A DNA stretch of 64,000 bases, taken from assembly GCA_016182555.1 (NCBI GenBank), contig JACPGJ010000002.1, positions 48,040-112,039 on the forward strand. The letters run 5' to 3'. The notes below the pieces were generated by a model, which made no database searches, was not told where the DNA came from, and worked only from the letters and a program-made list of their open reading frames with translations. A program made the translations under genes and the position numbers. The DNA is from Candidatus Kerfeldbacteria bacterium. GTDB taxonomy: Bacteria > Patescibacteriota > Patescibacteriia > UBA9570 > XYC2-FULL-38-9. This document shows, one piece after another, positions 4,795-28,293 of this stretch (position 1 is its first letter; every line of letters starts with the position of its first letter).

Positions 4795-4974
4795 GAGCAC
4801 AACAAATGATTTTACTCTCTCTGGCTTGGAATTATCTACGTCGGAGAACCCCGGGGTCACCCGAAGGTCGAAAGACCAGAAGGAGGCCGCGTGGTCTCTC
4901 CGGGGAGTGTCTTTGTTGTCCGCAACCCATGGCGTCGCGACGTGTCTTACGTGCGGCGCCACTTTGGAGGTTCT

Positions 4975-5856
4975 ATGAATCGGTTTTTCGTCCTCGCCAC
5001 CGCGCTGGTGGCCGTGATGTTTTCGTCGACGGCCGTCGCGACGGCCGTACCTTCCAATCTTCTTGGTGAGGTGCAGAGGTCTGCACTCACCAAGGTCTGG
5101 GAGGTTGGACCCGGCTCCCTGCCGCCAGAGGGTGCCGAGTGCCAACCGGGAGAAATCCCGGTGGTGCGAGGCACCGCCGACGAGATCCCGGGCGGCGACA
5201 CCGCCCAGGTGCAGCTAGATTCGCGGCGGCTGATGGCCGTCGCTCCCGCCGGTTGGGACGGCTCCTGGGGGTGGATCGCCGGGACGACGACGTCCGGCGA
5301 CAGCGCCGGCGTAGTGGGATGTGCGCCGCGGGGCGCCTTCCCAGCCGCCACGGCGGCGCCCTCGGCCGCCGCCCCCCAGTCACCATACCCGGCCATGCCC
5401 GGCCTTGAGCTCCCCAATGGGGTGAGCCTGAATGCTGAGCTGGACCCCGAGCAGGTTGCGACACTGACGTCGCAGCTGCTCTGCCTCCAGGCGGGGCGGG
5501 GTAACGACTGCCTCGGCGCGTACGCCGGGGGGTCCAACCTGGGGAAGTTACTGGAGAACGGCGCCCCGTTCTCCCTCAGGATGCCGGGGCTCGACCTCGT
5601 CGTCCGCCCCGTGGCCGGCAAACGGAGGGCCGCCCCCGTCGAAGAGGGGAACGGAGAGGCCACCCGCAGGACCAGGTGGTTCTGCGGAGACCACCCGGTG
5701 GTCTGCCTGGCGGCGACCACGATCGTCGTGGTGGGCGGAGTCGCGCTCACCTCGGTGGTCATGGGAAACCCCGTCGTCGATATCGGCGGCGGGAGTGCCG
5801 GTGGTAGCGCCTCCGCAGGCGCCACCGCTGGGTTTACGGTGATGCGCTTTCGGTAG
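4975..5856 (+). CDS. Secreted/membrane-anchored hypothetical protein encoded in the GC-rich island
   Basis: Internal start MNRFFVLATALVAVMFSSTAVATA is signal-peptide-like. Ala/Gly/Pro-rich with a C-terminal hydrophobic stretch. The opposite-strand ORFs in this region look like GC-driven artefacts. Confidence 0.4.
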   Translation: MNRFFVLATALVAVMFSSTAVATAVPSNLLGEVQRSALTKVWEVGPGSLPPEGAECQPGEIPVVRGTADEIPGGDTAQVQLDSRRLMAVAPAGWDGSWGWIAGTTTSGDSAGVVGCAPRGAFPAATAAPSAAAPQSPYPAMPGLELPNGVSLNAELDPEQVATLTSQLLCLQAGRGNDCLGAYAGGSNLGKLLENGAPFSLRMPGLDLVVRPVAGKRRAAPVEEGNGEATRRTRWFCGDHPVVCLAATTIVVVGGVALTSVVMGNPVVDIGGGSAGGSASAGATAGFTVMRFR

Positions 5857-6316
5857 GCGCGCCACCAACTTCGACCGTCGCGTGAGGGTCAGCATCGGCT
5901 GAACCCGAACGCGCATCGCTGCTCTCCGCGGCGGCCGACTTCGAATTCAAACTTGTCGTGTTTCGGGAGGGACGCAACGACGCTGTTCATTCGCTGCGTC
6001 TCTCCCCCTTCTTTCCTTTCTCGGAATCATTTCAGAGAAAGAAAAGTGGGAAAACATTTCTCACGTGCACTTTACAAATTTTTTCACTCTTTATTCAACT
6101 CAAGCCAGGAGTATTCGGATGATCACACAGGAAGACCATAGATGATTCGAGTAATCCTGGCTTGTAGATGCGGCGCCAGGAGGTCCGGGGGGTATGCCCA
6201 CGCTGAAAAGCGCGAAGTGTGCCCTCCAGTGGGGCCTCCCGAGGATCGTTGTTAAACCGAGAGTACGGCCGCCACTGTTCCAATCATGGACAATGGGCGG
6301 CCGTAGAGGAGTCAAA

Positions 6317-7672
6317 ATGAAAAAATGTTTTTGCTGGCTCGCCATCGCAATGATGGTGATGGTCAGCACCACTGCATGCCGCATTCGCGGCGGCAGTGTT
6401 TACGATGACTCAGGGCGGGAGACAGCGGATTCCGCCCTGGATGGAGACAACGACGGCGTCCCCTCGGGCGCCGGTGACTGCGACGACAACGACGCGTCGG
6501 TTTATCCCGGCGCGACCGAGCTGTGCGACGGCGTCGACAACAACTGCGACGGCGAGGTCGACGAGGGGTGTTCGGCTGAAACGCCGACCCCCGAAGCAGA
6601 AACCCCGACCCCGGAACCGACGCCCCCCCTTGACGGGGATGGCGACGGCTACTCCGAGGTCGGTGGCGACTGCGACGACACCAGCTCGGCCGTCCATCCG
6701 GGCGCGGTCGAGGGCTGCGACAGCTTCGACAGCGACTGCGATGGCGCGGTAGATGAGGGGTGTGAGGAGGAGAATCCCACACCCGACGATACGCCGGAGC
6801 CGACCGAAACCCCCGAGCCAGACGACCTGGACGGAGACGGCTACACCGAGGTCGGTGGCGACTGCGATGACACTGATGCGACGGTCTACCCGGGGGCAGA
6901 AGAGCTGTGCAATGATGCAACGGATTCGGACTGTGACGGTAATTCGTCTGAGTCAGAATCTGGATGCGTCGTGTACAGCGATGACGCGGACGGAGATGGG
7001 TATTGTGAGAATTCGCCGTGTGTCGTTTCGACGATGCCGGCGGGTGACTGCGATGACACCGACGCCCGCACTTATCCCGGGGCCGCGGAGACCTGCGACG
7101 GCCTGGACAACGATTGCGATGGGGATCGCGACGACATCGCCGAAGGAACGGGTAGCCTCTACTACCAGGACTCCGACGGCGATGGGTATGGAACTGACTC
7201 TGAGGTTATTTCGGCCTGCAGCCGTCCCGCTGGCTATGCGGTTAGCGACGACGACTGCAACGACGGCAACGCGTCAATCCACCCGGGTGCCACCGAGACC
7301 TGCAACAACGTGGACGACGATTGCGACGGCGCCGTGGAAGACGACACCGTCTGCAACCCGGACTGCGCCGCCACCGCCTTCTGGTGGGGCGCAGATTTCA
7401 ACCTCGTGACCTGGGCGAGCGAGGGTCAGCACCTGATTTCCAATCAGGATGACCCGGACTCGTCCAATACGGTCGAGTCGTCGACCCCCTGGACGTACCA
7501 GGGGCAACTCAACATCTGCGCCGGCGCGACCAGCTCGGCCGACGAGGTTATGGCTGCCGTAAACATCGGCAGCAACACCTGCGTCGCCTGGGACACGGCG
7601 AACGCATATGACGACGATGGGGACGGTTTCTGCGTCCCTATCAAAAAGGCTGAGATCGATCACACTCCGTGA
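6317..7672 (+). CDS. Lipoprotein with tandem MopE-type putative metal-binding Cys/Asp-rich repeats
   Basis: Start MKKCFCWLAIAMMVMVSTTAC with a lipobox-like TAC. At least 7 repeats of DGDGY...GGDCDD-x5-PGA-x-E-x-CDG-x-DNDCDG-xx-DEGC, the 'putative metal-binding motif' repeat described for MopE and many myxobacterial proteins. Very high GC. Confidence 0.6.
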   Translation: MKKCFCWLAIAMMVMVSTTACRIRGGSVYDDSGRETADSALDGDNDGVPSGAGDCDDNDASVYPGATELCDGVDNNCDGEVDEGCSAETPTPEAETPTPEPTPPLDGDGDGYSEVGGDCDDTSSAVHPGAVEGCDSFDSDCDGAVDEGCEEENPTPDDTPEPTETPEPDDLDGDGYTEVGGDCDDTDATVYPGAEELCNDATDSDCDGNSSESESGCVVYSDDADGDGYCENSPCVVSTMPAGDCDDTDARTYPGAAETCDGLDNDCDGDRDDIAEGTGSLYYQDSDGDGYGTDSEVISACSRPAGYAVSDDDCNDGNASIHPGATETCNNVDDDCDGAVEDDTVCNPDCAATAFWWGADFNLVTWASEGQHLISNQDDPDSSNTVESSTPWTYQGQLNICAGATSSADEVMAAVNIGSNTCVAWDTANAYDDDGDGFCVPIKKAEIDHTP

Positions 7673-7684
7673 TTTGATCTCCTC

Positions 7685-7710
7685 TGCGCGGTTCACCACT
7701 GCCGCGCGGA
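7685..7710. repeat. GC-rich hairpin ctgcgcggttcaccactgccgcgcgg (copy 1), with the shared flank recurring at 10235-10330
   Basis: The 32-nt stretch ctctgcgcggttcaccactgccgcgcggaagt at 7682-7713 is identical to 10235-10266. Both are followed by cgctcctt...tcttcttttttttt. Confidence 0.5.
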
Positions 7711-11286: not shown

Positions 11287-11408
11287 TGTAAATGTTTTGC
11301 ATCTGCAAAGCACCTTATAATATAGTTGAGTATCGTGGTTCAGACAGATACAGTGCCTGAATACCGCGCTCTATTTGGTATATTGAAAAGAAGAAGGGGA
11401 AATGCGCG

Positions 11409-11840: not shown

Positions 11841-11984
11841 TCGCCACGGGCTCCGGATTATCGCGCGCAGGTAAAAAATTTCACGTCCGTCGGCTTGAAT
11901 AGAGCGGCAGGCGTGGTTTTTTCTGAATGGAGATAGTTATTTTTTACAAAAAACGCTATAATTGGCTGGCGATAAATAACGATT

Positions 11985-14494: not shown

Positions 14495-14498
14495 GTGT

Positions 14499-16338: not shown

Positions 16339-18412
16339 GAATTCTCCGTTTGCGGCGTTGTTGTTTTTATCTTTGTGTATCTTCGCTGCCCCGCACCAAG
16401 CAGATGCGGCAAACAATAAACGGTTGATTGTGGGAAACATCAATGGAGATGGTACACCACTTATTGCTAATTGGAATTTTAAATGGAGTATTGATTCCGA
16501 TGAAGAGATGCAAGAATTGGCGCAATGGGATTTGATTATTGCCGATGTCGAGCAAGAAGCGTATTCGCGAGAGCGGTTGGAAAAGCTGAAAAAATTAAAC
16601 CCAGATATTATTTTGCTGGCCTATATTTCCATGACCGATATTCGGCCAGATGCTGCTACGCTGGATCAAGGAACCATGCGCCGGTATATTGGTGAATTGC
16701 TCGATGAACACCCGGAATGGATTTTGCGTGATCGTGCAGGAAAACCGGTGCACTGGTGGGAAGACTACTCTATTTTTAATATGAGCAATAGTGCGCCAGT
16801 GAGTGATACTGGTGAACGTTTCAATACCGTATTTCCCAAAATAATTCGCGATGCCATTATTAAAGATAATCTTTGGAATGGGGTTTTTTACGACAATCTG
16901 TGGGAAGATGTGTCTTTTGTGAATACCCATATTGATGAAAATATGGATGGCGTTGCTGAGAGCAAAAGTGATATGGATACGTCTTGGTTTAAGGGAATGA
17001 AAAAAGTGCTCATCCAGACACGCAAATACGCAAAAAAATATAGAAAAAACAAATTTATTATTACCGGAAATGGTGGGATGGGATATTATAAAGATGTGAA
17101 TGGCGTCGGGTTTGAACATTTTCCGAATACGAAATATGGGCAGTGGGTCGATTCAATGCAAGATTATAATTTCATTTTACAACATGCATTGCCACGCCAG
17201 TATGCAGTGATTAACACGAATACCGCCAACTCTGGTAACCGTACAGATTATAAGAAATTTCGTTTTGGTTTAACCTCGACTCTTCTGAATGATGGCTATT
17301 ACAGTTTTGATAATGGCGACCAAAGCCATGCTGAACGTTGGTTTTATGATGAATATAAAACGTGGCTGGGGACGCCGGTGAGCGGTGCCTATAACGTGCT
17401 GGATAAAAATGAACCACGCAAAATTCAACCAGGGCTCTGGCGACGTGATTATGAACAGGCCATTGTATTAGTGAATTCGATGAGCAGCGCACAGACCATT
17501 CGTTTAGAATCTGGGTTTGAAAAAATTCAAGGCGAACAAGACCCGGTAACGAATTCTGGTGATGTGATTGGTCAAATTACTATTCCCGCTGAAGATGGTA
17601 TTATTTTATTGAAGCGTCTCAGCACCGTGCGTGACACGAATTTTTTGAATGGGGGATATGCGAAAGTGTTTAACGCCCGTGGTAAACAGGTGCGTAAAAG
17701 TTTCTTTGCCTACGACGGCAGTTTTACGGGTGGTGCAGAGATTCATAAAATTTCGAAGAAAAATTATACTGTGGTTGCGGATGATACCAGTGTGCGAGTG
17801 TATAATAACCGCAATGATGAAATTGCTGCGTTTGCGCCCTATGGCACCGGGTATGCGTCTGGTGTAAATGTGGCCGTGGGAAATTTATATGGTAAGAAAA
17901 AACAATATATTGTTACTGGTAGTGCAAAAAAAAGTGGACATGTGCGTATATATACGTTGAAAGGTCGGCTGGTGAACTCTGGGTGTTTTCCGTATGGTAA
18001 TAGTTATAACTCTGGTGTGAGCGTGGCCATGGGAGATTTGAATGGCGATGGCAAAATGGAAATTGTTACCGGAACGGGGCCTGGTGGTGGCCCGCAAGTG
18101 CGGGTGCTCAATCGCTATTGTGAAGTGATTAACCCTGGTTTTCTGGCTTTTTCTAAAGATTTGCGTAGTGGAATAAATATCGCCGTTGGTGATGTCGATG
18201 GAAATGGCAAAGACGAAATTATTGCAGCCCCTGGGGCCGGTGGTGGCCCACAGGTGAGAATTTTCCGAAAAAGCGGTAAACTAGTAGGTGGAGGTTTCTT
18301 TGCCTATAAAGAGTCAGACCATAGTGGGATTTATGTTTCCACTGCCGATGTGAATAATGATGGCATTGATGAGATTATGACGAGTACATTCTCGATATTT
18401 AATTTATTTTAA
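16310..18412 (+). CDS. Secreted protein: N-terminal glycoside-hydrolase-like TIM-barrel region plus C-terminal FG-GAP/VCBS repeats
   Basis: Signal peptide MKKLFAKK...AAPHQADA. GH114-like segment DLIIADVEQ...ILLAYISMTD. At least 4 repeats of GDxNGDGKxEIvtGtGPGGGPQVRv. Confidence 0.5.
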   Translation: MKKLFAKKNRNSPFAALLFLSLCIFAAPHQADAANNKRLIVGNINGDGTPLIANWNFKWSIDSDEEMQELAQWDLIIADVEQEAYSRERLEKLKKLNPDIILLAYISMTDIRPDAATLDQGTMRRYIGELLDEHPEWILRDRAGKPVHWWEDYSIFNMSNSAPVSDTGERFNTVFPKIIRDAIIKDNLWNGVFYDNLWEDVSFVNTHIDENMDGVAESKSDMDTSWFKGMKKVLIQTRKYAKKYRKNKFIITGNGGMGYYKDVNGVGFEHFPNTKYGQWVDSMQDYNFILQHALPRQYAVINTNTANSGNRTDYKKFRFGLTSTLLNDGYYSFDNGDQSHAERWFYDEYKTWLGTPVSGAYNVLDKNEPRKIQPGLWRRDYEQAIVLVNSMSSAQTIRLESGFEKIQGEQDPVTNSGDVIGQITIPAEDGIILLKRLSTVRDTNFLNGGYAKVFNARGKQVRKSFFAYDGSFTGGAEIHKISKKNYTVVADDTSVRVYNNRNDEIAAFAPYGTGYASGVNVAVGNLYGKKKQYIVTGSAKKSGHVRIYTLKGRLVNSGCFPYGNSYNSGVSVAMGDLNGDGKMEIVTGTGPGGGPQVRVLNRYCEVINPGFLAFSKDLRSGINIAVGDVDGNGKDEIIAAPGAGGGPQVRIFRKSGKLVGGGFFAYKESDHSGIYVSTADVNNDGIDEIMTSTFSIFNLF

Positions 18413-18418
18413 AATTGC

Positions 18419-20275
18419 ATGCCTGAAGAACGCATTCCATTTCATCATAAGCATCTGCCTAGTCTGACTAAATGGACGCGTGCAGCATGTTGGAAATTGA
18501 GTCATTTGTATTTCCCGATTGTTATTCACTACATGACAGATAAATATACAGGTCGTTTGCACCATTTTGTGGTGGATATGATTTATGTGGTATTTACGGT
18601 TATTTTTGCGGCAGCAAATATTGGCCTAGCGATGTGGTTTTATTTGTATTTTACTCCAGCGGATATTGATGTGCATGCTGTTACCACAGCACATATTGTT
18701 AGTGGGAACGACACGGTCGTTTCCGTCGTGTATAAAAATGATAGCCGCGCTATTGATGATGTCGCGATTGAAGTATTTTTACCAGATGGGTTTATTCCGG
18801 CTGCGAGCACGAATGGCAACAATACCGGACAGCCGACCTATGTGAGCCTGGGGCATCTAGAACCATACGCGCAAGGATTGATTGAAATTCCAGGAGCGAT
18901 GTTTGGAGATGTTGATCATACCTATGCTGTTCGTGCGATGACGTCTTATACCTCCTTCAAACAACGCCATGAACAATTTACTACCCAACATTTTACTGTT
19001 GAAGGTACGTCGTTTGATGTGCGTGTGCAATTTCCTGATACCGTAACGTACGATACCGCTATTGAAGGCACCGTGCACTATACCAATAATAGTCATTATG
19101 ATTTAGATACGGCTACATTTACTTTGAATTTTCCAACCAATTTTGCGATAGATTCTATTGACTATAATACGACGAATGGAGCATTTGATGCAGCGCATCC
19201 GGAATTGACTATTACTGGTATTGCCGCGAATGAAGAAGGAGATTTGGTTGTGCATGGGCGGTTTATCAGAACCGATATTGCCCTAAGCGGAGACCAACAA
19301 AGTGAATTTTTGGTCAGCGTGCGTATCACTGTTGGTGGTGAAACGAGTGCTGTATCGAACCAAGTGGTGTTTGCCTCACCAGACGAACATACCGGTATTC
19401 GAGTAATCACCCCGCGATTAAGCGCTTCGATAACCGGAACGAGTATTGCCCGATTTGGGGATACAATTAGTGCGACAATCGTTGTAAATAATATTGGCGA
19501 TAGCCCCATTGAACAGATTGCTCTTTTTGGCGATATGCATGGGTCACCATTGCTTACCCATTCAGCAACCGTTCACTTAAACGATAATGGGGTGAATAGT
19601 CAGGTGACTGGCGCACAAACTGCTGGAGCAAACCGTATTCCGTTTCCAGTGCTTAGCCAATTGCCAGTGGGAGAAAGCCGAACCTTTACTATCAGTATTC
19701 CAACCAGTGCAGTAGATGCACAACAAGTCTCATCAAGTTTGTCCGTTTTTGGCAGCGGCTATTCACCCGAATTAGATGTGCAGATTGGTTTGCCGAGTAT
19801 GGCTATTGCGACCAAATATGATTCACAGGTCGACCTGTCATCTGCACTCTATTATTATGGGCCAAATGGGGAAGAGCTGGGATATGGCCCGTATCCACCA
19901 CAAGCTTGGCAGCCAACGGCGATGCGCGTCGTATTGAAAGTAGAAAATGTGAATAACCCATTGCGGAATGTGGTGATTCGAGCAACACTTCCTGGCCAAG
20001 TAGAATGGACAAATTTGTATAGCGTTACGGCTGGTTCAGAATTGCTTTGGAACTCCGCCACACGCACCATAGAATGGCATATTGATACCCTGGATCCACA
20101 AAGTAGCGGTTACGGCGCGCAATTTGAGGTCGTTCTTACGCCAAATCATTTGCAAATTGGGCTAACGCCTCACCTGGCTGACAATATACAACTCACGGCA
20201 ACGGACCAATATACTGGGCGTGTTATTAGTGCCCCGGGTGGTGCTGTGGTTTTGCCTGTGGCTGTTGTTCAATAA
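18419..20275 (+). CDS. Membrane-anchored repeat-domain surface protein (DUF11-like beta-sandwich repeats), hypothetical
   Basis: N-terminal TM helix (IYVVFTVIFAAANIGLAMWFYLYF), then Thr/Asn-rich repeated ~100-aa units. No catalytic motif. Confidence 0.4.
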   Translation: MPEERIPFHHKHLPSLTKWTRAACWKLSHLYFPIVIHYMTDKYTGRLHHFVVDMIYVVFTVIFAAANIGLAMWFYLYFTPADIDVHAVTTAHIVSGNDTVVSVVYKNDSRAIDDVAIEVFLPDGFIPAASTNGNNTGQPTYVSLGHLEPYAQGLIEIPGAMFGDVDHTYAVRAMTSYTSFKQRHEQFTTQHFTVEGTSFDVRVQFPDTVTYDTAIEGTVHYTNNSHYDLDTATFTLNFPTNFAIDSIDYNTTNGAFDAAHPELTITGIAANEEGDLVVHGRFIRTDIALSGDQQSEFLVSVRITVGGETSAVSNQVVFASPDEHTGIRVITPRLSASITGTSIARFGDTISATIVVNNIGDSPIEQIALFGDMHGSPLLTHSATVHLNDNGVNSQVTGAQTAGANRIPFPVLSQLPVGESRTFTISIPTSAVDAQQVSSSLSVFGSGYSPELDVQIGLPSMAIATKYDSQVDLSSALYYYGPNGEELGYGPYPPQAWQPTAMRVVLKVENVNNPLRNVVIRATLPGQVEWTNLYSVTAGSELLWNSATRTIEWHIDTLDPQSSGYGAQFEVVLTPNHLQIGLTPHLADNIQLTATDQYTGRVISAPGGAVVLPVAVVQ

Positions 20276-20350
20276 ATTTTCCTTACATTAGCAATTTTTT
20301 ATAGGACAAACTGGTCTTTTTTTTGTGGGTTCTTTGGCCCATTTTACCTA

Positions 20351-20379
20351 TTGACAAAAATCAAAAGTTGTGCTAAGTT
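20351..20379 (+). promoter_or_regulatory. Promoter TTGACA-N17-TAAGTT, a re-use of the 4365-4393 promoter block
   Basis: cctattgacaaaaatcaaaagttgtgctaagtt versus cctattgacaagaatcaaaaagcgtgctaatat at 4361-4393. Confidence 0.5.
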
Positions 20380-20405
20380 CTAGGGTCTTTTAAAACAGAC
20401 ACCCT

Positions 20406-23400
20406 ATGAAAATAGCTATGATTGGCCAAAAAGGAATACCCGCAACCTGGGGTGGCGTCGAACAACACGTCGACCATCTTAGCCAGGAATTGCGTGCGCT
20501 CGGGCACGAAATTTTTGTCTATTCTCGGGAGTATTATGTGAGTCCAAGCTTTGTTGCTGCCTATAATAAACAGCAGGCTGGTATTCAGGTGATCTCTTTA
20601 CCCACCATTCAATCCAAAAATATTGATACGATTGTCCATACGTTTCTAGCGACCATGCACGCCATTCTTTTTGTGAAGCCAGATATCTATCATTTCCATA
20701 GCGTTGGACCGTCGTTATTATCGTGGTTGCCTCGGGTGTTGCGCCCACGAGCGAAAGTGATTGTGACATTTCATTGCGAAGATCGATTGCACCAAAAATG
20801 GGGGCGTTTTGCGCGTTTTATGCTTACGCTTGGTGAATGGACGGCTACACACTTTCCACACCAAACGATTACCGTTTCCAAAACATTGACAGCCTATGCA
20901 TTGGAGAAATACGGGTGCACCGGAGTATATATCCCAAACGGCGTAGATATTGTGGCGCCATTGGCTCCGGCACAAATTACTGAACAGTGGGGTTTAACGC
21001 AAGGAAATTATATGTTGACCGTTGCGCGTTTAGTTCGCCATAAAGGAGTGCATCATTTAATTGAAGCGTTCAAGAAAACAACCACGGATAAAAAATTAGT
21101 GATCGTTGGTGGTTCAACGCATACAGATGAATACGTTCAATATTTGCACAAACTCGCTGGCGATGACCGTCGTATTATCTTCACTGGTTTTCAACGTGGC
21201 ACGGTATTAAATGAATTATTTGCAAATGCCTATCTGTATATACAGCCGTCTGAATCAGAAGGCTTGTCTGTAGCCGTATTGGAAGCTGCCAGTTTTGCTC
21301 GCCCGATTGTGGCTAGTGATATTCCAGCCAATGCAGAGATTGTCGCAGGTAACGGATTGCTCTTCCGTAACATGGATACGACAGATCTACAGAAGCAGCT
21401 CCTATTTGGCTTAGAACACACAGCGCAGATGAGAGAGGCTGGTAAGCAATTGCAGCGCCATATTCAGAAAGAGTATAATTGGCAGGCTATTGCGAAAGAG
21501 GTGAATACCGTATATAATCATTTATCTATAAATAAGCAAAAAATTATGTCGTATGCTATCCCAGTTCGTCATATGAAACGCATCATTCCATTTCTATTCT
21601 TCGCCGTGGTGAGTATTGGATTCTTTATGGTGTCTACACGTGCGGTTTCCGCCGCAACATTTACCGTGAATGGTACGGTAGATGATTATGATAATAGTCC
21701 TGCTGATGAAGAATGTATGGGGGAAAAAACCAACCTGTGTACATTGCGTGCGGCTATTATGGAAGCAAATGAACTTCCTGGAGAAGATACAGTATATCTT
21801 CCTGCTGGTACCTATCTGTTGGGTATTCCTGGTGCAGATGAAGACTCTGGATTTATGGGAGACTTGGATATAAAAGATGAGTTGGTGATTATCGGTGATG
21901 GTTCAGGAACAACCGTCATTCAACCACAAGAGATGTCCGGATTTGATGATCGTGTGTTTGACATATTAGAAACCGGTCAGTTGACCCTTCAGGGTATTAT
22001 GGTGACGGGTATGGCATATACGAATGATTATTGTAGTGGAATGATTATTCAGAATTATAGCGAGGCACCGTTAGTGATCGATGATGTGCGTGTGGAAAAT
22101 GTGACCTGTGAAGCACCAACGATATATGGTGGATTGATTGCCAGTTGGAGTGATGCCCAGATGACCATATCCAATAGCGTTTTTGATCAAGCGACGTTAA
22201 TTATTTCTGGTAATTATGCCGGAGTCATTGGTGGAGGAATATTGACGTATGGAAATGTACAATTGAATAATACGACCATTAGTAATATTTCCGTTCAAGG
22301 TTCCGGAACTCAGTTAACCTATGTGTATGGGCTTGGTGTGTATGCGAGTACCGTAGAGATGGATCATTCACGTATTGTCAATAACACGGCTTCTACGGAT
22401 GGATATGGAGAAATGCGTGGTGCTGGTATGATGACCTCTGTCGGAACTATTCAGCATAGTACCGTGAATGGTAATAGTTTTTCTGCCAATGAAGGATTGG
22501 TTGGTGGTGCTGGTATTCATGGTTATGAATTTACGCTTCTGAATAGTACGATCACTGATAATAGCGCTTTGGTAACGAATGGAGAAAGTTATGGTGCAGG
22601 TATCATGACTGAAGGCGGTGGTCGTGTAACGATTATGCATAGCACGATCAGTAATAATGTTTCTCATCAATCCGGTAGTCAAATTTATAATTTTTCTTCC
22701 ACTCCGATCATGATGAGCGGTTCTATTGTCAACAGCGAAGAATCGGTGGAGAATTGTGATATCTATGATTCCACGATATCCGTTACGGATTCTGGGGGGT
22801 ATAACATAGATAACGGAAATAGTTGCGGATTTTCTGAAAGCACTGACCAGGTGAATACCGACCCATTGCTGGATGAGAATGGTTTGGCAGATAACGGTGG
22901 TTCTACACTCACGATTGCATTGCAGGCTGCTTCTCCAGCAATCAATGTTGTTCCAGAAACGGCGTGTCTTAATTTGGTTGATCAACGTGACGTCGCGCGA
23001 GATTCACTCTGTGATGTTGGTGCATATGAATATGTGGATACGTCTGCTCCGGTGGTCACGGTGATTGGTTCGAATGCAATGGATATAGAGTGTCGAGTGA
23101 CATACACAGATTTAGGAGCGACAGCAACAGATGATGTTGATGGTGATTTGACGAACACGATTAGCACAACGAATCCTGTGGATGTGAATACCACTGGTGC
23201 ATATACAGTCAATTATGCTGTTGTAGATTTTGCGAATAATGCTCATTCCGCTACACGAACCGTGAACGTTCTTGATACCCTTGCTCCAAGCATGGTCATG
23301 AACGGCGCATCTTCTGTCGAAATTGCGCAAGGTGAAACGTATGTCGATAGTGGTGTAACAGCAACAGATGGTTGTGACAGTACGGTGGAGGTGACGACAA

Positions 23401-24116
23401 CGAATGCCGTGAATACGGCGGTGGCTGGTACGTACACCGTTACGTATACGGCGACGGATGATTCTGGCAATAGTAGTGATACACTGAATCGTACGGTGGT
23501 TGTGGTAGCGGCTGCTGTGACAGAAACTCCAGATAATAATGGAGAAGACAATGGAGGAGATGATGTTGAGGAGGTCGTGGATGAAACACCTGATGCAGAA
23601 GAAGAGGTGCGTTCGATCATTTCTGTTTCACCGACAGAGGATGGCACACTCGTGATTACTTATGAAGATGGAAGCAGTGCAGTTATTACGCCTTTTGATG
23701 GCAATGCGGATTTCCAGTATGTCATGAGCGGCGTTGCAGATCGTGTTATTGTCACGAATGGCAAGTTCGTGCGTTTATATGTGCATGGTGAACGTGTTGC
23801 GCAACAGCGTATCAATAAGAAAAAGCCAAAATTTGTGCAATTGACACTCGCACAGATGTTTGATGGTTATGAATCCATTGTCCTATTGACCAAGCGACAG
23901 GGAAAATTGAAGACCACGGCAGTACGCGTCACCAGTGATAATGATTTTACGAAACACAAACGTCGTGTACAGCAATTAACGGATGGACAATCTTCAAAAG
24001 AACTTGGGTTGACAGTGAAAGAAGATAAGCATCGCATTCTCGTGAGTATTGGTAAAAAAGAAATGATATACAAACTGACGAAAAAAGGAATATTGAAAGA
24101 GATTGTAAACGAATAA
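20406..24116 (+). CDS. 1236-codon ORF: GT4 glycosyltransferase (aa 1-~375) read through, without a stop, into a secreted CSLREA/parallel-beta-helix protein with DUF5011-type Ig-like domains (internal start ATG 21546)
   Basis: N-terminal GT4 motifs (...ESEGLSVAVLEAASFARPIVASD). At aa 381 a typical signal peptide MSYAIPVRHMKRIIPFLFFAVVSIGFFMVSTRAVSAA, then CTLRAAIMEAN (CSLREA-like), beta-helix repeats, ...DQRDVARDSLCDVGAYEY, and two P-x-I-x-L-x-G...Y-x-D-x-G-A-x-A-x-D Ig-like modules. Confidence 0.6.
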   Translation: MKIAMIGQKGIPATWGGVEQHVDHLSQELRALGHEIFVYSREYYVSPSFVAAYNKQQAGIQVISLPTIQSKNIDTIVHTFLATMHAILFVKPDIYHFHSVGPSLLSWLPRVLRPRAKVIVTFHCEDRLHQKWGRFARFMLTLGEWTATHFPHQTITVSKTLTAYALEKYGCTGVYIPNGVDIVAPLAPAQITEQWGLTQGNYMLTVARLVRHKGVHHLIEAFKKTTTDKKLVIVGGSTHTDEYVQYLHKLAGDDRRIIFTGFQRGTVLNELFANAYLYIQPSESEGLSVAVLEAASFARPIVASDIPANAEIVAGNGLLFRNMDTTDLQKQLLFGLEHTAQMREAGKQLQRHIQKEYNWQAIAKEVNTVYNHLSINKQKIMSYAIPVRHMKRIIPFLFFAVVSIGFFMVSTRAVSAATFTVNGTVDDYDNSPADEECMGEKTNLCTLRAAIMEANELPGEDTVYLPAGTYLLGIPGADEDSGFMGDLDIKDELVIIGDGSGTTVIQPQEMSGFDDRVFDILETGQLTLQGIMVTGMAYTNDYCSGMIIQNYSEAPLVIDDVRVENVTCEAPTIYGGLIASWSDAQMTISNSVFDQATLIISGNYAGVIGGGILTYGNVQLNNTTISNISVQGSGTQLTYVYGLGVYASTVEMDHSRIVNNTASTDGYGEMRGAGMMTSVGTIQHSTVNGNSFSANEGLVGGAGIHGYEFTLLNSTITDNSALVTNGESYGAGIMTEGGGRVTIMHSTISNNVSHQSGSQIYNFSSTPIMMSGSIVNSEESVENCDIYDSTISVTDSGGYNIDNGNSCGFSESTDQVNTDPLLDENGLADNGGSTLTIALQAASPAINVVPETACLNLVDQRDVARDSLCDVGAYEYVDTSAPVVTVIGSNAMDIECRVTYTDLGATATDDVDGDLTNTISTTNPVDVNTTGAYTVNYAVVDFANNAHSATRTVNVLDTLAPSMVMNGASSVEIAQGETYVDSGVTATDGCDSTVEVTTTNAVNTAVAGTYTVTYTATDDSGNSSDTLNRTVVVVAAAVTETPDNNGEDNGGDDVEEVVDETPDAEEEVRSIISVSPTEDGTLVITYEDGSSAVITPFDGNADFQYVMSGVADRVIVTNGKFVRLYVHGERVAQQRINKKKPKFVQLTLAQMFDGYESIVLLTKRQGKLKTTAVRVTSDNDFTKHKRRVQQLTDGQSSKELGLTVKEDKHRILVSIGKKEMIYKLTKKGILKEIVNE

Positions 24117-24127
24117 GAGATTCTTGA

Positions 24128-24161
24128 GACCGCCTCTTCACAGGGGCGGTCTTTTGTTTTT
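24128..24161 (+). terminator. Rho-independent terminator (GACCGCC-loop-GGCGGTC + T-run)
   Basis: gaccgcctcttcacaggggcggtcttttgttttt directly after the 24116 stop. Confidence 0.7.
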
Positions 24162-24193
24162 CATGATTTTTTGATAGAGTAGATGGTGTTGAT

Positions 24194-24643
24194 ATGAAAG
24201 TGACCGTTTTTCAATTTATGCGTTTTACCATCGTCGGTGCAACCAATACTGTTCTTGATGCGTTCATCTATATTGCATTGACGCGGAGTACAGATTTTTT
24301 TCACCGTTGGTACTTACTTGCGGCCGCAATCGCTTTTTTTCTTTCCAGCGCAAACAGTTTTTTTTGGAATAAGCATTGGACGTTTAAAGATGGTATACAC
24401 TATTCCCATGCTCAGCTGATGCGTTTTTTTATGGTGGCAGGCGTGGCATTTTTTCTTAATGAAATTTTACTGTGGTTGTGTGTAGAGTTTTTTCATGTAC
24501 ATGACATTGTTGCAAAATTACTCGCATCTATTGGCGCGGGTGGAATTAATTTTTTGATGCAGAAATTTTGGACATTTCCTATTGTTGATTATGAGGGTGG
24601 AGTTGGCGACGAGGAAAAAAGCGAGTATACTAGTCATATATGA
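24194..24643 (+). CDS. GtrA-like family membrane protein (polyprenyl-phosphate-sugar flippase-like)
   Basis: 149 aa with 4 TM helices. MRFTIVGATNTVLDAFIY and FFWNKHWTF match the GtrA family pattern. Confidence 0.65.
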   Translation: MKVTVFQFMRFTIVGATNTVLDAFIYIALTRSTDFFHRWYLLAAAIAFFLSSANSFFWNKHWTFKDGIHYSHAQLMRFFMVAGVAFFLNEILLWLCVEFFHVHDIVAKLLASIGAGGINFLMQKFWTFPIVDYEGGVGDEEKSEYTSHI

Positions 24644-25665
24644 ACGGCAAACAAACTATTTTTGATAAAAAAAATGTTTTAGTCATTGGTGGTGCAGGGT
24701 TTATTGGTTCGCATTTGTGTGACGCACTGGTGAAAACAGCAAAGGTTATTTGTATTGATAATTATGCTAGTGGCGGGGTAGAGAATATCTCTCATTTATT
24801 GCAGAATCCGAATTTCACGTTTATTCGTCATGATATGAGCGAACCGATTGATTTAGAATTGTTACCAGAGTCTGAATTATTCCAGGTCAAATTTCAAGGT
24901 ATTCAGGAAATATATTATTTAGCCTGCCCAACCATTCAACTGGGTTTTGAAGAGTATGCTGTGGCGACAGCGCGTGCCAATTCCCTCGGTGTCGTGAATG
25001 CTCTCGGTATTGCGAAACGGTATCATGCAAAATTTTTGTTTGGCTCCAGCCGTGCGGTGTACGGTGACCCATTACAAGGCCAAGAAAGTTTTTCTGAAGA
25101 TTATTGGGGCTTTGTTGATTTTTTGAACGAACGTGCCTGTTACAATTCTGGAAAGCGTTTTGCCGAAACACTCACCATGACCTATCATCGGTCATATAAA
25201 TTAGATACAAAAATTGCTCGCATTTTTAATATTTATGGTCCGCGCATGCGTTTGAATTCCGGCCGCATGATTCCTGATTTTGTTCGCGCAGCCATTGACC
25301 GGCAAGATTTGAAAATGTATGGCGATGGTTCATCGACGGAAAGTTTTTGTTATGTGGATGATTTGGTTCAAGGGTTGATGATTTTAATGCAATCGAACGT
25401 CAATGAGCCGGTGAATTTAGGGAGTGCGGAGACACACCAAATGATTGAAGTGGCCAAAATGATTATTGAATTGGTTGATTCCAAGTCGAACATTTTGTTT
25501 GAAGATGCGATTGCTGGTTTGGTAAAACCCGCATTGCCAGATATTAGCCGTGCAAAACATTTGCTGGGCTGGTTTCCCGTGACGGATATTCATACTGGCT
25601 TGCAGCGTACGGTTGAGAATATGCTTGGTTCTCGTGTGCTGACCTATACACCACCGACATCTTGA
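24640..25665 (+). CDS. NAD-dependent epimerase/dehydratase, UDP-glucuronate decarboxylase (UXS)-like
   Basis: VLVIGGAGFIGSHLCDAL Rossmann motif. ...AVYGDP...ERACYNSGKRFAE (YxxxK) closely parallels UXS/ArnA-type decarboxylases. Confidence 0.7.
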   Translation: MNGKQTIFDKKNVLVIGGAGFIGSHLCDALVKTAKVICIDNYASGGVENISHLLQNPNFTFIRHDMSEPIDLELLPESELFQVKFQGIQEIYYLACPTIQLGFEEYAVATARANSLGVVNALGIAKRYHAKFLFGSSRAVYGDPLQGQESFSEDYWGFVDFLNERACYNSGKRFAETLTMTYHRSYKLDTKIARIFNIYGPRMRLNSGRMIPDFVRAAIDRQDLKMYGDGSSTESFCYVDDLVQGLMILMQSNVNEPVNLGSAETHQMIEVAKMIIELVDSKSNILFEDAIAGLVKPALPDISRAKHLLGWFPVTDIHTGLQRTVENMLGSRVLTYTPPTS

Positions 25666-25738
25666 CTTGCGGCAGTATTTTTCCTATGATATTTGGGCGA
25701 AAGAGCTATTTTTTTATTATATAAATTTTGAGCATGTT

Positions 25739-27052
25739 ATGAATATTATTGTTGTTGGTACCGGGTATGTGGGGTTGGTGAGTGGTGCGTGTTTGGCAGA
25801 AATTGGACACACGGTAACTTGTGTTGATATTGACCAGAAAAAAATTGACGCACTCAAAAATGGAAAAATTCCCATTTTTGAACCCGGCCTCGAAACCATG
25901 GTAATGAACAATGTGCAATCTGGTCACCTGCGTTTTACTACAAAGTTAGCCGAGAATTTCGCTGATGCTGAAGTTGTGGTGATCGCGGTAGGAACGCCAT
26001 CGCGTCCAGATGGCCATGCCGATTTACAATATGTGTATGCCGTTGCCGAAGAAATTGGTGCGCAGATAACAGATTATACAGTTGTGGTGAATAAGAGCAC
26101 GGTGCCGGTGGGAACGGGTCGCGCTGTTGAAGATATTATTCGGAAAACCTATAGCGGTGAATTTGCAGTAGTGTCTTGCCCAGAGTTTTTACGTGAAGGT
26201 TCTGCGGTGGATGATTTTATGCACCCGGACCGTATTGTGATTGGTACACGCAATGACCGCGCCGCGAAAGTGATGCTGGATTTGTTTGCCAAAATTAAAG
26301 GAGAGAAGTTAGTGACGACTGTAGAAAGCGCCGAAATTATCAAATATGCTTCAAATGCCTTCCTTGCCACAAAGATTTCTTTCATCAATGAAATTGCCCA
26401 TTTGTGTGAACGTGCGGGTGGAGATATTGAAGAAGTGGCGTATGGTATTGGTTTAGACCAACGTATTGGGCCGAAATTTTTGAGTGCCGGTATTGGATGG
26501 GGTGGATCATGCTTTCCAAAAGATGTGCGTGCGTTGGAACAAATTGGTGGTTTGCACGGATATGATTTTCGTTTGTTGAAAGCGGTGATTGAAGTGAATA
26601 ATCATCAACGCATGCATTTTGTAGAAAAAATGAAAGAACATTTTGGTGGCAGTGTGAATGGTAAACGTATCGCCGTGCTTGGTTTGGCATTTAAAGGCAA
26701 CACCGATGATGTTCGTGAATCTGCCGCGATTGATATTATTTCTGCGCTCGTGAAAGAAGGTGCGACAGTGAGCGCGTTTGATTATGAAGCCGTCACAAAT
26801 ACAAAACAAGTATTAGCCGATGTGCCGGTGGACTATGCTGTTGACCCCTATGCCGCTGTTGCTGGTGCAGATGCGGTGGTCATTGCCACAGATTGGCCCC
26901 AATTTAAAGATTTGGATTGGAAGCGTATCAGTCAAACAGTGGGAACGCCGGTGGTGTTTGATGGTCGAAATATGTTTAATCCACAACGTATGCGCAGCGA
27001 ATATGGCTTTACTTATTATTCGATTGGACGGCCGAGCGCTACTGTAGCATAA
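25739..27052 (+). CDS. ugd: UDP-glucose 6-dehydrogenase
   Basis: MNIIVVGTGYVGLVSGACLAEIGH, GWGGSCFPKDV catalytic Cys motif, and a C-terminal UDP-binding domain. Confidence 0.85.
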   Translation: MNIIVVGTGYVGLVSGACLAEIGHTVTCVDIDQKKIDALKNGKIPIFEPGLETMVMNNVQSGHLRFTTKLAENFADAEVVVIAVGTPSRPDGHADLQYVYAVAEEIGAQITDYTVVVNKSTVPVGTGRAVEDIIRKTYSGEFAVVSCPEFLREGSAVDDFMHPDRIVIGTRNDRAAKVMLDLFAKIKGEKLVTTVESAEIIKYASNAFLATKISFINEIAHLCERAGGDIEEVAYGIGLDQRIGPKFLSAGIGWGGSCFPKDVRALEQIGGLHGYDFRLLKAVIEVNNHQRMHFVEKMKEHFGGSVNGKRIAVLGLAFKGNTDDVRESAAIDIISALVKEGATVSAFDYEAVTNTKQVLADVPVDYAVDPYAAVAGADAVVIATDWPQFKDLDWKRISQTVGTPVVFDGRNMFNPQRMRSEYGFTYYSIGRPSATVA

Positions 27053-27059
27053 TGAATGT

Positions 27060-28031
27060 ATGAAAAAGCTTATTGTCACGATTCCCGCATTCAATGAAGA
27101 GGAAAATATTGCCGAAGTGATTCGTGAAATTCCACGAACGATTCCGGGTATCGATTGTGTAGAAGTATTGGTTTTTGATGATGGGTCTACTGACCGAACA
27201 TGTGAACTTGCTCGTGCTGCTGGTGCTGAACATATTCGTACACATGCACGTAATAAAGGTTTGGCGATTACGTTTAAAGAATCGTTGTGGGAAGCATTAC
27301 AATTGGGCGCAGACATTATTGTGAACACCGATGGCGACAATCATTATGACCAATCACGCATTCCGGAGCTCGTTGCACCGATTTTGGCTGGAGCTGCTGA
27401 TATTACGATCGGTTCTCGGAAAGTCGCAGAGCTCGAGCACATGCCATTTCTGAATAAACATTTGAATAGAATTGGGAGTTATGTGTTGACGAAGTGGGTG
27501 GGCATGCCGCGGATGGATGTGTCCACTGGCTACCGTGGCTATTCACGCACTGCCGCGATTCAACTGGGCGTCTATTCGTTACATACATACGTGCATACTA
27601 CGCTGCTTTCCGCGCAAGATTTGCATTTGAATATTTTGGAAGTGCCGATTAAAGCCCGCAAAGTGACGCGTCGTTCGCGGTTGATTAAGAGTATTCCGAG
27701 TCATTTGTGGAAGGCGAGTGTGAATATTGTTCGTAATGTGGTGTTATTTCGACCGTTGCGTTTTTTCGGTATTTGTTCTGTAGTGTTGTTTGGCGTTGGA
27801 GCCGCAGCCATCAGTCGGTTCCTCTATTTTTATTTTATTGATGGTGGTCGTGGCCATGTGCAATCATTGATTCTTGCTGGAGTATTGATCATTCTCAGTT
27901 TCAATAGCTTGATGCTTGGGTTCTTGGGGTCTTCTATGGGGTGGTCGCGTAAAATTAGTGAAGAGATATTATTTTTTATTAAGAAAAGAGAATTAGAACA
28001 ATACACACATGACAAAGTTGATCACAATTAG
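27060..28031 (+). CDS. GT2 polyprenyl-phosphate glycosyltransferase (GtrB/DPM1-like) with C-terminal TM helices
   Basis: IVTIPAFNEEENI, VLVFDDGSTDRT, DGDNHYD (DxD), and two C-terminal TM segments. Confidence 0.75.
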   Translation: MKKLIVTIPAFNEEENIAEVIREIPRTIPGIDCVEVLVFDDGSTDRTCELARAAGAEHIRTHARNKGLAITFKESLWEALQLGADIIVNTDGDNHYDQSRIPELVAPILAGAADITIGSRKVAELEHMPFLNKHLNRIGSYVLTKWVGMPRMDVSTGYRGYSRTAAIQLGVYSLHTYVHTTLLSAQDLHLNILEVPIKARKVTRRSRLIKSIPSHLWKASVNIVRNVVLFRPLRFFGICSVVLFGVGAAAISRFLYFYFIDGGRGHVQSLILAGVLIILSFNSLMLGFLGSSMGWSRKISEEILFFIKKRELEQYTHDKVDHN

Positions 28032-28212
28032 CGACCAGCTCTTTTTAGAGCTTGAAGGAGTGCTCAAAAAAAAAGGAGGCGCTGCAGATATTCATGCCTA
28101 CGTGGAGGAATTGTTGCAAAAAGCCTTGCTTGCCGAAACCGATGGCATTTATAAGCCACACGATGAAGCAGAGATTCGTGATCGGTTGAAATCGCTTGGG
28201 TACATTGATTAA
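28009..28212 (+). CDS. Ribbon-helix-helix (CopG/Arc-like) small protein, paralog A
   Basis: 67 aa. The N-terminal beta-strand/helix pattern and the C-terminal ...EAEIRDRLKSLGYID are shared with the 38832-39038 product (...EADVKKRLEDLGYLD). Confidence 0.45.
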   Translation: MTKLITISDQLFLELEGVLKKKGGAADIHAYVEELLQKALLAETDGIYKPHDEAEIRDRLKSLGYID

Positions 28213-28241
28213 ACGTATTGGTGTGCTACGACCTTCACGCC

Positions 28242-28293
28242 AATTCTTCGAGAGCTTCGTTTTGCTTCGCAAATACGTGCTCTCTCCAGAATT
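28242..28293. repeat. Palindromic intergenic repeat, copy A (reverse orientation) of AATTCTGGAGAGAGCACGTATTTGCGAAGCAAAACGAAGCTCTCGAAGAATT
   Basis: 52-bp core with internal inverted repeats AATTCT/AGAATT and GAGAGC/GCTCTC. Other copies at 34444-34495, 36275-36326 and 43921-43972. Confidence 0.75.

What the first reader, a model, noticed from the sequence alone, without database searches (positions are those of the whole stretch)
20406..24116. GT4 glycosyltransferase lacking a stop codon and reading straight into a signal-peptide-bearing CSLREA/beta-helix surface protein
The 1236-codon ORF begins as a typical cytoplasmic GT-B/GT4 enzyme of ~375 aa. Without any stop it continues in frame through ATG 21546 into MSYAIPVRHMKRIIPFLFFAVVSIGFFMVSTRAVSAA, a textbook Sec signal peptide. 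That is followed by a CTLRAAIMEAN (CSLREA-type) motif, a parallel beta-helix and two Ig-like modules. A signal peptide 380 residues into a cytoplasmic enzyme makes no sense as a single polypeptide. The options are internal initiation of a second protein inside the read-through ORF, a lost stop codon, or an assembly or sequencing error.
Basis: seen in the sequence. Interest (0 to 1): 0.55.

Follow-up and report, generated by a model that had tools for sequence, protein, structure and literature searches.

The report
Glycosyltransferase gene run into surface-protein gene
In this Kerfeldbacteria genome, a normally separate sugar-transferase gene has no stop codon and reads straight into a complete secreted surface-protein gene inserted after it; this is a one-off boundary loss that the cell can probably tolerate, not a new kind of protein.

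Summary
ORF 20406..24116 (1236 aa) is a full GT4 glycosyltransferase (aa 1-370) running without a stop into a signal peptide, CSLREA motif, beta-helix, choice-of-anchor-Q domain, two DUF5011 Ig modules and an orphan tail. A second assembly reproduces it base for base.

It is unique. All 139 distinct orthologous GT4 loci stop 1-33 codons after the conserved core. In the six closest syntenic loci GT4 is followed directly by GtrA. The 2.6-kb surface-protein sequence is therefore a lineage-specific insertion.

The surface part is a complete precursor. Its AVSA|ATFTVN aligns with the cleavage site of the N-terminal signal peptides of about 20 of 28 homologues.

The junction still looks like a gene boundary:
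- an 85% AT, unstructured leader before ATG 21546;
- TAA in both other frames within 8 nt;
- the best promoter-like match of the region just upstream.

"Makes no sense as one polypeptide" is overstated. Five positive charges precede the hydrophobic segment and acidic residues follow it, so the fusion would sit GT4-in, surface-part-out, and signal peptidase could separate the halves.

Most likely this is a recent, tolerated stop loss at an inserted gene. A consensus sequence error is not excluded. Interest is low to moderate.

The parts
20406..21515 (+). GT4 glycosyltransferase conserved core (aa 1-370), intact, with the EX7E motif
   Evidence: Pfam and NCBIfam GT4 models cover aa 1-373. 47-60% identity over 97-100% of the query to 120 stand-alone orthologues of 367-409 aa. 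Conservation ends at Y370.
21516..21572 (+). Junction: 19 non-conserved codons (NHLSINKQKIMSYAIPVRH) where orthologues have their variable tail and stop. TAA in frame +1 at 21529-21531 and in frame +2 at 21533-21535. The in-frame codons TTA, AAG, CAA, AAA, TCG and TAT are each one substitution from a stop.
   Evidence: Sequence read directly. The orthologue tail is 1-33 codons, median 15, and 129 of 139 end in TAA.
21490..21518 (+). Promoter-like TTGCGA-17 nt-TATAAT, ending 27 nt before ATG 21546
   Evidence: Joint best match (10 of 12) in 20000-24800. The total number of matches is not above shuffles, so this is weak evidence.
21526..21548 (+). AT-rich, unstructured leader (ctataaataagcaaaaaatt) plus ATG 21546 (M381), the candidate internal start
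   Evidence: AT 0.85 in -20..-1. Only 0.6% of 356 internal in-frame ATGs reach this, against a mean of 0.68 for real starts. Local fold is -4.0 kcal/mol, in the top 3.7%. The genome is Shine-Dalgarno-poor.
21573..21653 (+). Second candidate start ATG 21573 (M390), then the signal peptide or signal-anchor MKRIIPFLFFAVVSIGFFMVSTRAVSA. Predicted signal-peptidase site A416|A417.
   Evidence: Single hydrophobic segment at aa 393-411, Kyte-Doolittle 2.28. In about 20 of 28 homologues the conserved ATFTVN follows an N-terminal 20-42 aa signal peptide ending AXA, in register with this one. AF2 predicts a helix here.
21660..21770 (+). CSLREA N-terminal domain (…CTLRAAIMEAN…)
   Evidence: TIGR04214 scores 25.2 bits, cut-off 25. 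C65, T66, L67, R68, A69 and A70 are invariant or nearly invariant in alignment A2.
21786..22922 (+). Right-handed parallel beta-helix (approx. aa 461-839)
   Evidence: AF2 pLDDT 84, pTM 0.85, with repeated short strands. Foldseek PDB matches: alginate epimerase/lyase 8jaz, Rhombotarget A 9cdv, AlgE4/AlgE6, pectate lyase; E 5e-5 to 1.5e-3, TM 0.3-0.47. No Pfam beta-helix hit except a weak PF12708.
22860..23033 (+). Choice-of-anchor Q domain (aa 819-876)
   Evidence: NF041518 scores 57.9 bits, cut-off 25.
23058..23510 (+). Two DUF5011 / Bact_surface_Ig-like modules (aa 885-955 and about 956-1035)
   Evidence: PF16403, two stretches, E 4.8e-31. Internal repeat at 39.5% identity. These modules dominate the exhaustive phmmer hits.
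23511..24116 (+). Acidic linker, a Rib/MiiA-like motif (EDGTLVITYEDGSSAVITP) and a lysine-rich orphan C-terminal tail, then the TAA stop. No C-terminal membrane anchor.
   Evidence: MiiA motif scores 21.3 bits, below the cut-off of 24. No Pfam hit. No homologue by the word-index search, which did not return the source protein either, so this negative is weak. AF2 single-sequence pLDDT is 41.
24126..24163 (+). Terminator-like hairpin (12-bp stem, 7 GC) plus a T-run, between the ORF stop and gtrA
   Evidence: Five of six relatives have a hairpin plus T-run between the GT4 stop and gtrA, so this looks like the ancestral GT4 terminator, with the insertion upstream of it.
24194..24643 (+). gtrA-family gene, the conserved immediate downstream neighbour of GT4 in relatives (context)
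   Evidence: PF04138, E 1e-27. Synteny.

Best explanation
A complete gene for a secreted surface protein was inserted in this lineage directly behind the conserved stand-alone GT4 gene of a Kerfeldbacteria cell-envelope glycan locus, upstream of the GT4 terminator. That gene carries its own Met and signal peptide, followed by the CSLREA domain, beta-helix, choice-of-anchor-Q domain, two Ig modules and an orphan tail.

At the new boundary the GT4 stop codon is missing. One substitution or one 1-nt indel would be enough to cause this. The two coding sequences now form one 1236-codon ORF.

If the DNA is right, every ribosome that translates GT4 must read on (inferred). The former signal peptide then acts as an internal signal-anchor, leaving GT4 in the cytoplasm and exporting the rest through Sec. 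Signal peptidase I can cut at VSA|A. The products would be a GT4 tethered to the membrane by a C-terminal helix and a free surface protein.

The surface protein is probably also made separately from ATG 21546 or 21573, which keeps a start-like leader.

Both halves end up in their proper compartments, so the stop loss is nearly neutral. It is an accident of a gene boundary, not a selected new architecture.
For: Shown:
- The ORF and its domains.
- An identical sequence in a second assembly.
- 139 of 139 distinct orthologous loci stop 1-33 codons after the core, and the 120 best protein hits are all 367-409 aa.
- In 6 of 6 syntenic relatives GT4 is followed by GtrA 19-90 nt later, with no surface-protein gene between.
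- No other protein among 5.8 billion covers both halves; maximum query coverage is 50%.
- The signal peptide and cleavage site are in register with the N-termini of stand-alone homologues.
- The junction is 85% AT and unstructured like real starts, with TAA in both other frames, and has a promoter-like site.
- Neighbouring genes are intact and of orthologue length.
- GC content of the insert equals that of the flanks.

Support for a tolerable topology:
- K377, K379, R388, K391 and R392 lie before the hydrophobic segment, and D/E residues after it (read).
- GT4 relatives P0010 and P0011 enter a membrane helix at residues 378 and 389.
Against: - Only one genome carries the junction, so there is no comparative evidence on how old it is or whether it is under selection.
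- No read-level data could be inspected. Both assemblies probably derive from the same reads.
- Signal-peptidase cleavage of an internal signal, and internal initiation, are inferred and not shown.
- The h-region is long (17-19 residues) and could resist cleavage.
- The count of promoter-like matches is no higher than in shuffles.
Confidence: 0.6

Rival explanations
1. Consensus, sequencing or strain-mixture error. The real genome has a stop (or a 1-nt difference that restores the TAA at 21529 or 21533) between GT4 and the surface-protein gene, which would then be two ordinary adjacent genes.
For: Both alternative frames stop within 8 nt of the end of the GT4 core, and several in-frame codons are one change from a stop. 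The junction looks exactly like an intergenic spacer plus start. The architecture is unique. MAG consensus sequences can blend strains.
Against: Two different assemblers give an identical 17.6 kb. There are no long homopolymers at the site. All neighbouring genes are intact and match orthologue lengths, so there is no sign of indel-prone assembly.
Confidence: 0.17
2. A selected, functional bitopic enzyme. The cytoplasmic GT4 and the extracellular beta-helix stay covalently linked through an uncleaved signal-anchor. This would couple glycan synthesis inside to glycan binding or modification outside, and the helix would also anchor the surface protein, which has no other anchor.
For: The topology is coherent (positive-inside; translation). 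The long h-region is compatible with a membrane helix. There is no C-terminal anchor in the tail. The closest structural matches of the beta-helix act on polysaccharides: alginate epimerases/lyases and pectate lyase. The locus makes a glycan. GT4-membrane-domain fusions exist.
Against: It is a single occurrence among 139 orthologous loci and 5.8 billion proteins. The AXA site and the mature N-terminus are kept exactly as in cleaved homologues. The linker keeps intergenic-like composition and out-of-frame stops. No catalytic residues of the beta-helix were tested.
Confidence: 0.13
3. Chimeric assembly: unrelated DNA was wrongly joined inside the glycan locus.
For: Only that the 2.6-kb segment is absent from all relatives and has no close homologue anywhere.
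Against: Both flanks are syntenic and continuous on one contig in two assemblies. GC content of 41-48% matches the flanks. The segment sits precisely between a CDS end and its terminator, and is in frame. No repeats lie at the boundaries.
Confidence: 0.03

Closest known systems
Stand-alone GT4 glycosyltransferases of the Kerfeldbacteria/Patescibacteria GHL15 - 610-aa protein - GT4 - GtrA - epimerase - UDP-glucose dehydrogenase - GT2 locus (e.g. P0122 in GCA_043813585.1, P0128 in GCA_001818785.1)
   Same: 57-60% identity over the whole 370-aa core. Same gene order on both sides, and the same terminator-like hairpin before gtrA.
   Different: They end with a stop (mostly TAA) 1-33 codons after the core and are 367-409 aa. 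Here the frame stays open for 866 more codons.
CSLREA / choice-of-anchor Q beta-helix surface proteins (TIGR04214, NF041518; e.g. P0009, P0024, P0050)
   Same: A signal peptide ending AXA, then ATFTVN…CTLRAAIMEAN, a beta-helix and the choice-of-anchor Q domain; 29-37% identity over this region.
   Different: In those proteins the signal peptide is at the true N-terminus, or the module follows other extracellular domains. None follows a cytoplasmic enzyme. The C-terminal tail here is an orphan.
Natural GT4-membrane-domain fusions (P0010 and P0011: GT4 plus an O-antigen-ligase-like Wzy_C multi-pass domain)
   Same: A GT4 of the same family (37% identity, residues 1-370) passes 8-20 residues after its core into a membrane helix, as it would here.
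   Different: They are multi-pass membrane proteins without a cleavable signal or a large exported beta-helix. They are distinct proteins, one cluster each (two and one member sequences), not relatives of this junction.
Bitopic proteins with a large N-terminal cytoplasmic enzyme, one membrane helix and an extracellular domain (e.g. PknB-type Ser/Thr kinases with PASTA domains), and viral polyproteins cut at internal signal peptides (own knowledge, not tested here)
   Same: They give the predicted N-in/C-out topology, and a precedent for signal peptidase cutting after an internal signal.
   Different: No sequence relationship. Those architectures are conserved and selected, whereas this one is a single occurrence.

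Membership tests
GT4 glycosyltransferase (Pfam PF13439 + PF00534; GT-B fold) | N-terminal Glyco_transf_4 domain and C-terminal Glycos_transf_1 domain above the curated cut-offs | tested here: met
   PF13439 78.5 bits (cut-off 28.5), aa 15-182. PF00534 83.5 bits (cut-off 26.4), aa 197-339.
GT4 glycosyltransferase (Pfam PF13439 + PF00534; GT-B fold) | EX7E catalytic/sugar-binding motif | tested here: met
   E-GLSVAVL-E read in the translation. The block SESEGLS…LEA is shared by orthologues.
GT4 glycosyltransferase (Pfam PF13439 + PF00534; GT-B fold) | Orthologue of the stand-alone locus GT4: a protein of about 367-409 aa ending shortly after the core | tested here: not met
   Core and synteny are orthologous, but there is no stop: 866 further codons against 1-33 in 139 loci.
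CSLREA domain protein (TIGR04214) | Match to the CSLREA_Nterm model at or above its cut-off | tested here: met
   25.2 bits against a cut-off of 25, i.e. marginal. The CTLRAA core is invariant or nearly invariant in alignment A2.
Choice-of-anchor Q domain protein (NF041518) | Match to the model at or above its cut-off | tested here: met
   57.9 bits against a cut-off of 25, aa 819-876.
Right-handed parallel beta-helix (PF13229 and relatives) | Sequence match to a Pfam beta-helix repeat model | tested here: not met
   No PF13229 hit. Only PF12708 at 18.4 bits, below its cut-off of 27. Several homologues do carry PF13229.
Right-handed parallel beta-helix (PF13229 and relatives) | Beta-helix fold | tested here: met
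   AF2 pLDDT 84 / pTM 0.85. Foldseek PDB ranks 1-7, 9 and 12 are known right-handed beta-helix proteins: 8jaz/8ja4, 9cdv/9cdu, 5lw3, 2pyg, 2pyh, 1ru4; E 5e-5 to 2e-3, but TM only 0.3-0.47. The folds of ranks 8, 10 and 11 (5zru, 6k0q, 7c7d) were not checked.
Bact_surface_Ig-like / DUF5011 (PF16403) | Match above the cut-off | tested here: met
   107.1 bits (cut-off 27), two stretches.
Sec-type (SPase I) signal peptide | Positive n-region, hydrophobic h-region, AXA c-region, positioned as in homologues | tested here: met
   MKR / IIPFLFFAVVSIGFFMV / STRAVSA|A. It aligns with the N-terminal signal peptides of about 20 of 28 homologues. No dedicated predictor was available.
Sec-type (SPase I) signal peptide | Located at the N-terminus of the translated product and actually cleaved | not testable with these tools
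   It depends on whether ATG 21546/21573 is used and on processing in vivo. In the annotated ORF it is internal (aa 390-416).
Selected multidomain fusion protein (Rosetta-stone type) | The same architecture recurs in independent, diverged genomes | tested here: not met
   No second protein covers both halves. 0 of 139 orthologous loci are extended. The surface part has no close relative in the genome or metagenome collections.

The most novel reading that the evidence does not exclude
The fused precursor is the main or only source of GT4 in this organism and works as a small bacterial 'polyprotein'. The signal peptide borrowed from the downstream gene first targets the finished GT4 to the membrane. 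Signal peptidase then cuts it, leaving GT4 with a C-terminal membrane anchor while releasing a glycan-binding or glycan-modifying beta-helix protein outside. One translation event would thus deliver stoichiometric inside and outside partners of one glycan pathway.
Probability: 0.15. Interest if true: 0.55.

Novelty: new variant of a known kind. Interest (0 to 1): 0.3.

Why it matters
Mostly this is a caution for annotation. The public record names the 1236-aa product a "DUF5011 domain-containing protein". That name hides an intact, conserved GT4 enzyme and an inserted surface-protein gene.

Biologically it is a clean natural example of stop loss at a gene boundary. The loss can be harmless here because the downstream signal peptide doubles as a signal-anchor, which is a plausible first step towards bitopic enzymes with one part inside and one outside the cell.

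It also marks a lineage-specific surface protein placed inside the envelope-glycan locus of an episymbiotic CPR bacterium, which may bear on host attachment.

None of this is very surprising to a specialist, and there is a single instance, so the value is modest.

Tried and rejected
- **Apparent second read-through in a relative.** L011 (Kerfeldbacteria RIFOXYC2_FULL_38_9) looked like GT4 reading into GtrA. This is an artefact of a run of N covering the stop; the near-identical L003 has TAA there.
- **Close relatives of the surface part.** None found in GTDB genomes or JGI metagenomes. The exhaustive phmmer search returned only Ig-repeat matches and no full-length relative.
- **C-terminal tail (aa 1065-1236).** No homologue by the word-index search. 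That search did not return the source protein either, so it may exclude long proteins, and the negative is weak. No Pfam family. The AF2 single-sequence pLDDT is 41, unusable, so no fold search was run.
- **Shine-Dalgarno test for an internal start.** Uninformative, because most genes in the window lack one.
- **Traces of the insertion.** No target-site duplications or boundary repeats beyond chance-level short matches. No GC difference between insert and flanks.
- **Rfam scan of the whole window.** No family reached threshold.
- **Programmed frameshifting.** Considered and dropped: there is no canonical slippery heptamer upstream of the out-of-frame TAAs, and none is needed.
- **Literature searches** ("CSLREA", "Kerfeldbacteria", internal signal peptide). 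Nothing bearing on this case.
- **Long GT4 hits.** These are GT4-GT4 tandems, GT4 plus deacetylase, or GT4 plus Wzy_C. None is a GT4 plus beta-helix.
Full report
**1. Observation**

- Residues 1-373 align end to end with GT4 family models: PF13439 at aa 15-182, PF00534 at aa 197-339, and several full-length NCBIfam GT4 models. The EX7E motif (E-GLSVAVL-E) is present in the translation.
- The frame then passes through ATG 21546 (M381) and ATG 21573 (M390) into MKRIIPFLFFAVVSIGFFMVSTRAVSA|A. This is the only strongly hydrophobic segment in the protein (aa 393-411).
- Downstream lie a CSLREA N-terminal domain (TIGR04214, 25.2 bits against a cut-off of 25, so marginal) and a choice-of-anchor-Q domain (57.9 against 25), then two PF16403/DUF5011 Ig-like modules.
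- No Pfam model called the beta-helix. I modelled aa 381-885 with an alignment of 28 homologues. The model has pLDDT 84 and pTM 0.85, with one helix at the hydrophobic segment followed by a long stack of short strands. Its best PDB matches are right-handed beta-helix proteins acting on polysaccharides: alginate epimerase/lyase 8jaz, AlgE4/AlgE6, pectate lyase Pel9A and Rhombotarget A. E-values run from 5e-5 to 1.5e-3, and TM-scores are only 0.3-0.47.

Every element of the description holds.

**2. Is the sequence real?**

The identical 1236-aa product is in NCBI as MBI2410346.1, "DUF5011 domain-containing protein", Candidatus Kerfeldbacteria, on a 123.5-kb contig. An independent Logan assembly of run SRR12113422 is 100% identical to window 10671-28261 over 17,591 nt.

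The neighbouring genes are intact and have the lengths of their orthologues, so the assembly does not look indel-prone. The two assemblies probably share their reads, so a consensus error or a strain mixture at a single base cannot be excluded without read mapping.

**3. Comparison with relatives**

- The 120 best GT4 hits (47-60% identity) are all stand-alone proteins of 367-409 aa.
- I collected orthologous loci from GTDB species genomes and JGI metagenomes and followed each GT4 frame to its stop. All 139 distinct loci stop 1-33 codons (median 15) after the residue equivalent to Y370, and 129 of them end in TAA. The window reads on for 866 codons.
- One apparent exception, L011, is a run of N over the stop.
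- In the six closest loci with context, the order is GHL15/FG-GAP protein, a ~612-aa protein, GT4, GtrA, epimerase, UDP-glucose dehydrogenase, GT2. GtrA begins 19-90 nt after GT4.
- The window has the same order on both sides, but 2.6 kb of surface-protein coding sequence lies between GT4 and gtrA. So this is not a conserved gene pair that lost a stop. It is a lineage-specific insertion.
- Five of the six relatives have a hairpin plus T-run between GT4 and gtrA. The window has a strong one at 24126-24163, after the long ORF. The insertion therefore lies between the end of GT4 and the old GT4 terminator, inside the same transcription unit.
- GC content of the insert (41-48%) matches the flanks, and no boundary repeats were found.
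- No close relative of the surface part exists in the collections searched. No other protein among 5.8 billion covers both halves; maximum query coverage is 50%.

**4. The surface part is a complete precursor**

In alignment A2, about 20 of 28 CSLREA homologues begin with a 20-42 aa signal peptide ending AXA. It is followed immediately by the conserved ATFTVNST…CTLRAAIMEAN. The window's AVSA|ATFTVNGT aligns in exact register. Its presequence is 36 aa from M381 or 27 aa from M390, both within that range.

The inserted segment therefore carries its own initiator Met, signal peptide and cleavage site.

**5. The junction still looks like a gene boundary**

- GT4 conservation ends at Y370. The next 19 codons are not conserved.
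- TAA occurs in frame +1 at 21529 and in frame +2 at 21533. In-frame TTA, AAG, CAA, AAA, TCG and TAT are each one substitution from a stop. One substitution or one 1-nt indel is enough to explain the fusion.
- The genome is almost devoid of Shine-Dalgarno sequences. Real starts are instead marked by AT-rich, unstructured leaders: mean AT 0.68 against 0.54 at internal ATGs.
- ATG 21546 has AT 0.85 in its leader, reached by only 0.6% of 356 internal in-frame ATGs, and a weak local fold in the top 3.7%.
- The joint best promoter-like match of 20000-24800, TTGCGA-17-TATAAT, ends 27 nt upstream. The total count of such matches is not above shuffles, so this is weak support.

**6. Mechanism**

What is shown is one open frame, an intact GT4, and a complete precursor downstream.

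What is inferred is the following. If the DNA is right, GT4 can only be made as the N-terminal part of the long chain. The segment before the hydrophobic stretch carries K377, K379, R388, K391 and R392 and no acidic residue. The segment after it is acidic. By the positive-inside rule, the stretch inserts N-in/C-out. GT4 stays in the cytoplasm, where GT4 enzymes work at the membrane face, and the beta-helix, Ig modules and tail are exported through Sec.

The preserved VSA|A site can then be cut by signal peptidase I. That would leave GT4 with a C-terminal membrane helix and release the surface protein. Separate initiation at ATG 21546 or 21573 probably adds more surface protein.

A C-terminal membrane tether is compatible with this GT4 family. 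P0010 and P0011 (37% identity, GT4 at residues 1-370) enter their first membrane helix at residues 378 and 389 and continue as Wzy_C-like multi-pass proteins.

The fusion is topologically coherent, which explains why losing the stop can be tolerated.

**7. Rivals**

- A sequence or consensus error (about 0.17) fits the near-miss stops, but two assemblies and intact neighbours argue against it.
- A selected bitopic enzyme (about 0.13) fits the topology, the lack of any other anchor and the polysaccharide-type beta-helix. Uniqueness, the preserved cleavage site and the intergenic-like linker argue against it.
- A chimeric join (about 0.03) is contradicted by synteny on both sides, matching composition and two assemblies.

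**8. Comparison with known systems, and verdict**

Both halves are ordinary members of known families: a locus GT4, and a CSLREA/choice-of-anchor-Q beta-helix surface protein with DUF5011 modules. The combination was not found in any other protein here, but it occurs once and has the marks of a recent accident at an inserted gene.

I rate it a new variant of known kinds, of low to moderate interest (0.3). Its main practical value is for annotation, since the public product name hides an intact GT4. It is also a natural illustration of how a downstream signal peptide can make a stop loss harmless. Read mapping at 21450-21650 and N-terminal proteomics would settle the open points.

Noticed in passing
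window 4900-7900: A GC-rich island (63-71% GC against about 40% elsewhere). Its two ORFs (4891..5856, no Pfam hit; 6194..7672, five Cu-binding_MopE motifs, E 1.6e-55) have strong Shine-Dalgarno sequences, unlike almost every other gene in the window. It could be a horizontally acquired island or a chimeric join.
   Followed up: partly
whole window (gene starts): The genome is nearly devoid of Shine-Dalgarno sequences. Most starts give an anti-SD duplex weaker than -4 kcal/mol and are instead preceded by AT-rich, weakly folded leaders.
   Followed up: partly
L011 4540-4560 (Kerfeldbacteria RIFOXYC2_FULL_38_9, MHKJ01000006.1): A run of N covers the GT4 stop codon, so the GT4 frame appears to read into gtrA. 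The near-identical L003 has TAA there. This would trap automatic fusion detection.
   Followed up: yes
window 18419-20275 and orthologues in L002, L003, L005, L007, L009: A ~610-620 aa protein with no Pfam hit here (some orthologues have only a weak or faint CLIPPER record). It sits between the GHL15/FG-GAP protein and GT4 in five of the six related loci with context (absent in L008). It is an uncharacterised component of this glycan locus.
   Followed up: no
window 23637-23693 (aa 1078-1096): The motif EDGTLVITYEDGSSAVITP scores just below the cut-off of the NCBIfam 'MiiA motif-containing surface protein' model (21.3 against 24) and weakly resembles aRib. The rest of the lysine-rich tail has no detectable homologue.
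   Followed up: partly
window 24126-24163; L002, L003, L007, L008, L009 between GT4 and gtrA: A terminator-like hairpin plus T-run between GT4 and gtrA recurs across relatives although the genes are co-oriented and close together. This suggests GT4 and gtrA are separate transcription units, or that attenuation occurs there.
   Followed up: partly
window 21546-23060 (model m03720f29a5a7): Among the best structural matches of the beta-helix is the recently solved 'Rhombotarget A' (9cdv, 9cdu), alongside alginate C5-epimerases. No catalytic residues were compared.
   Followed up: no
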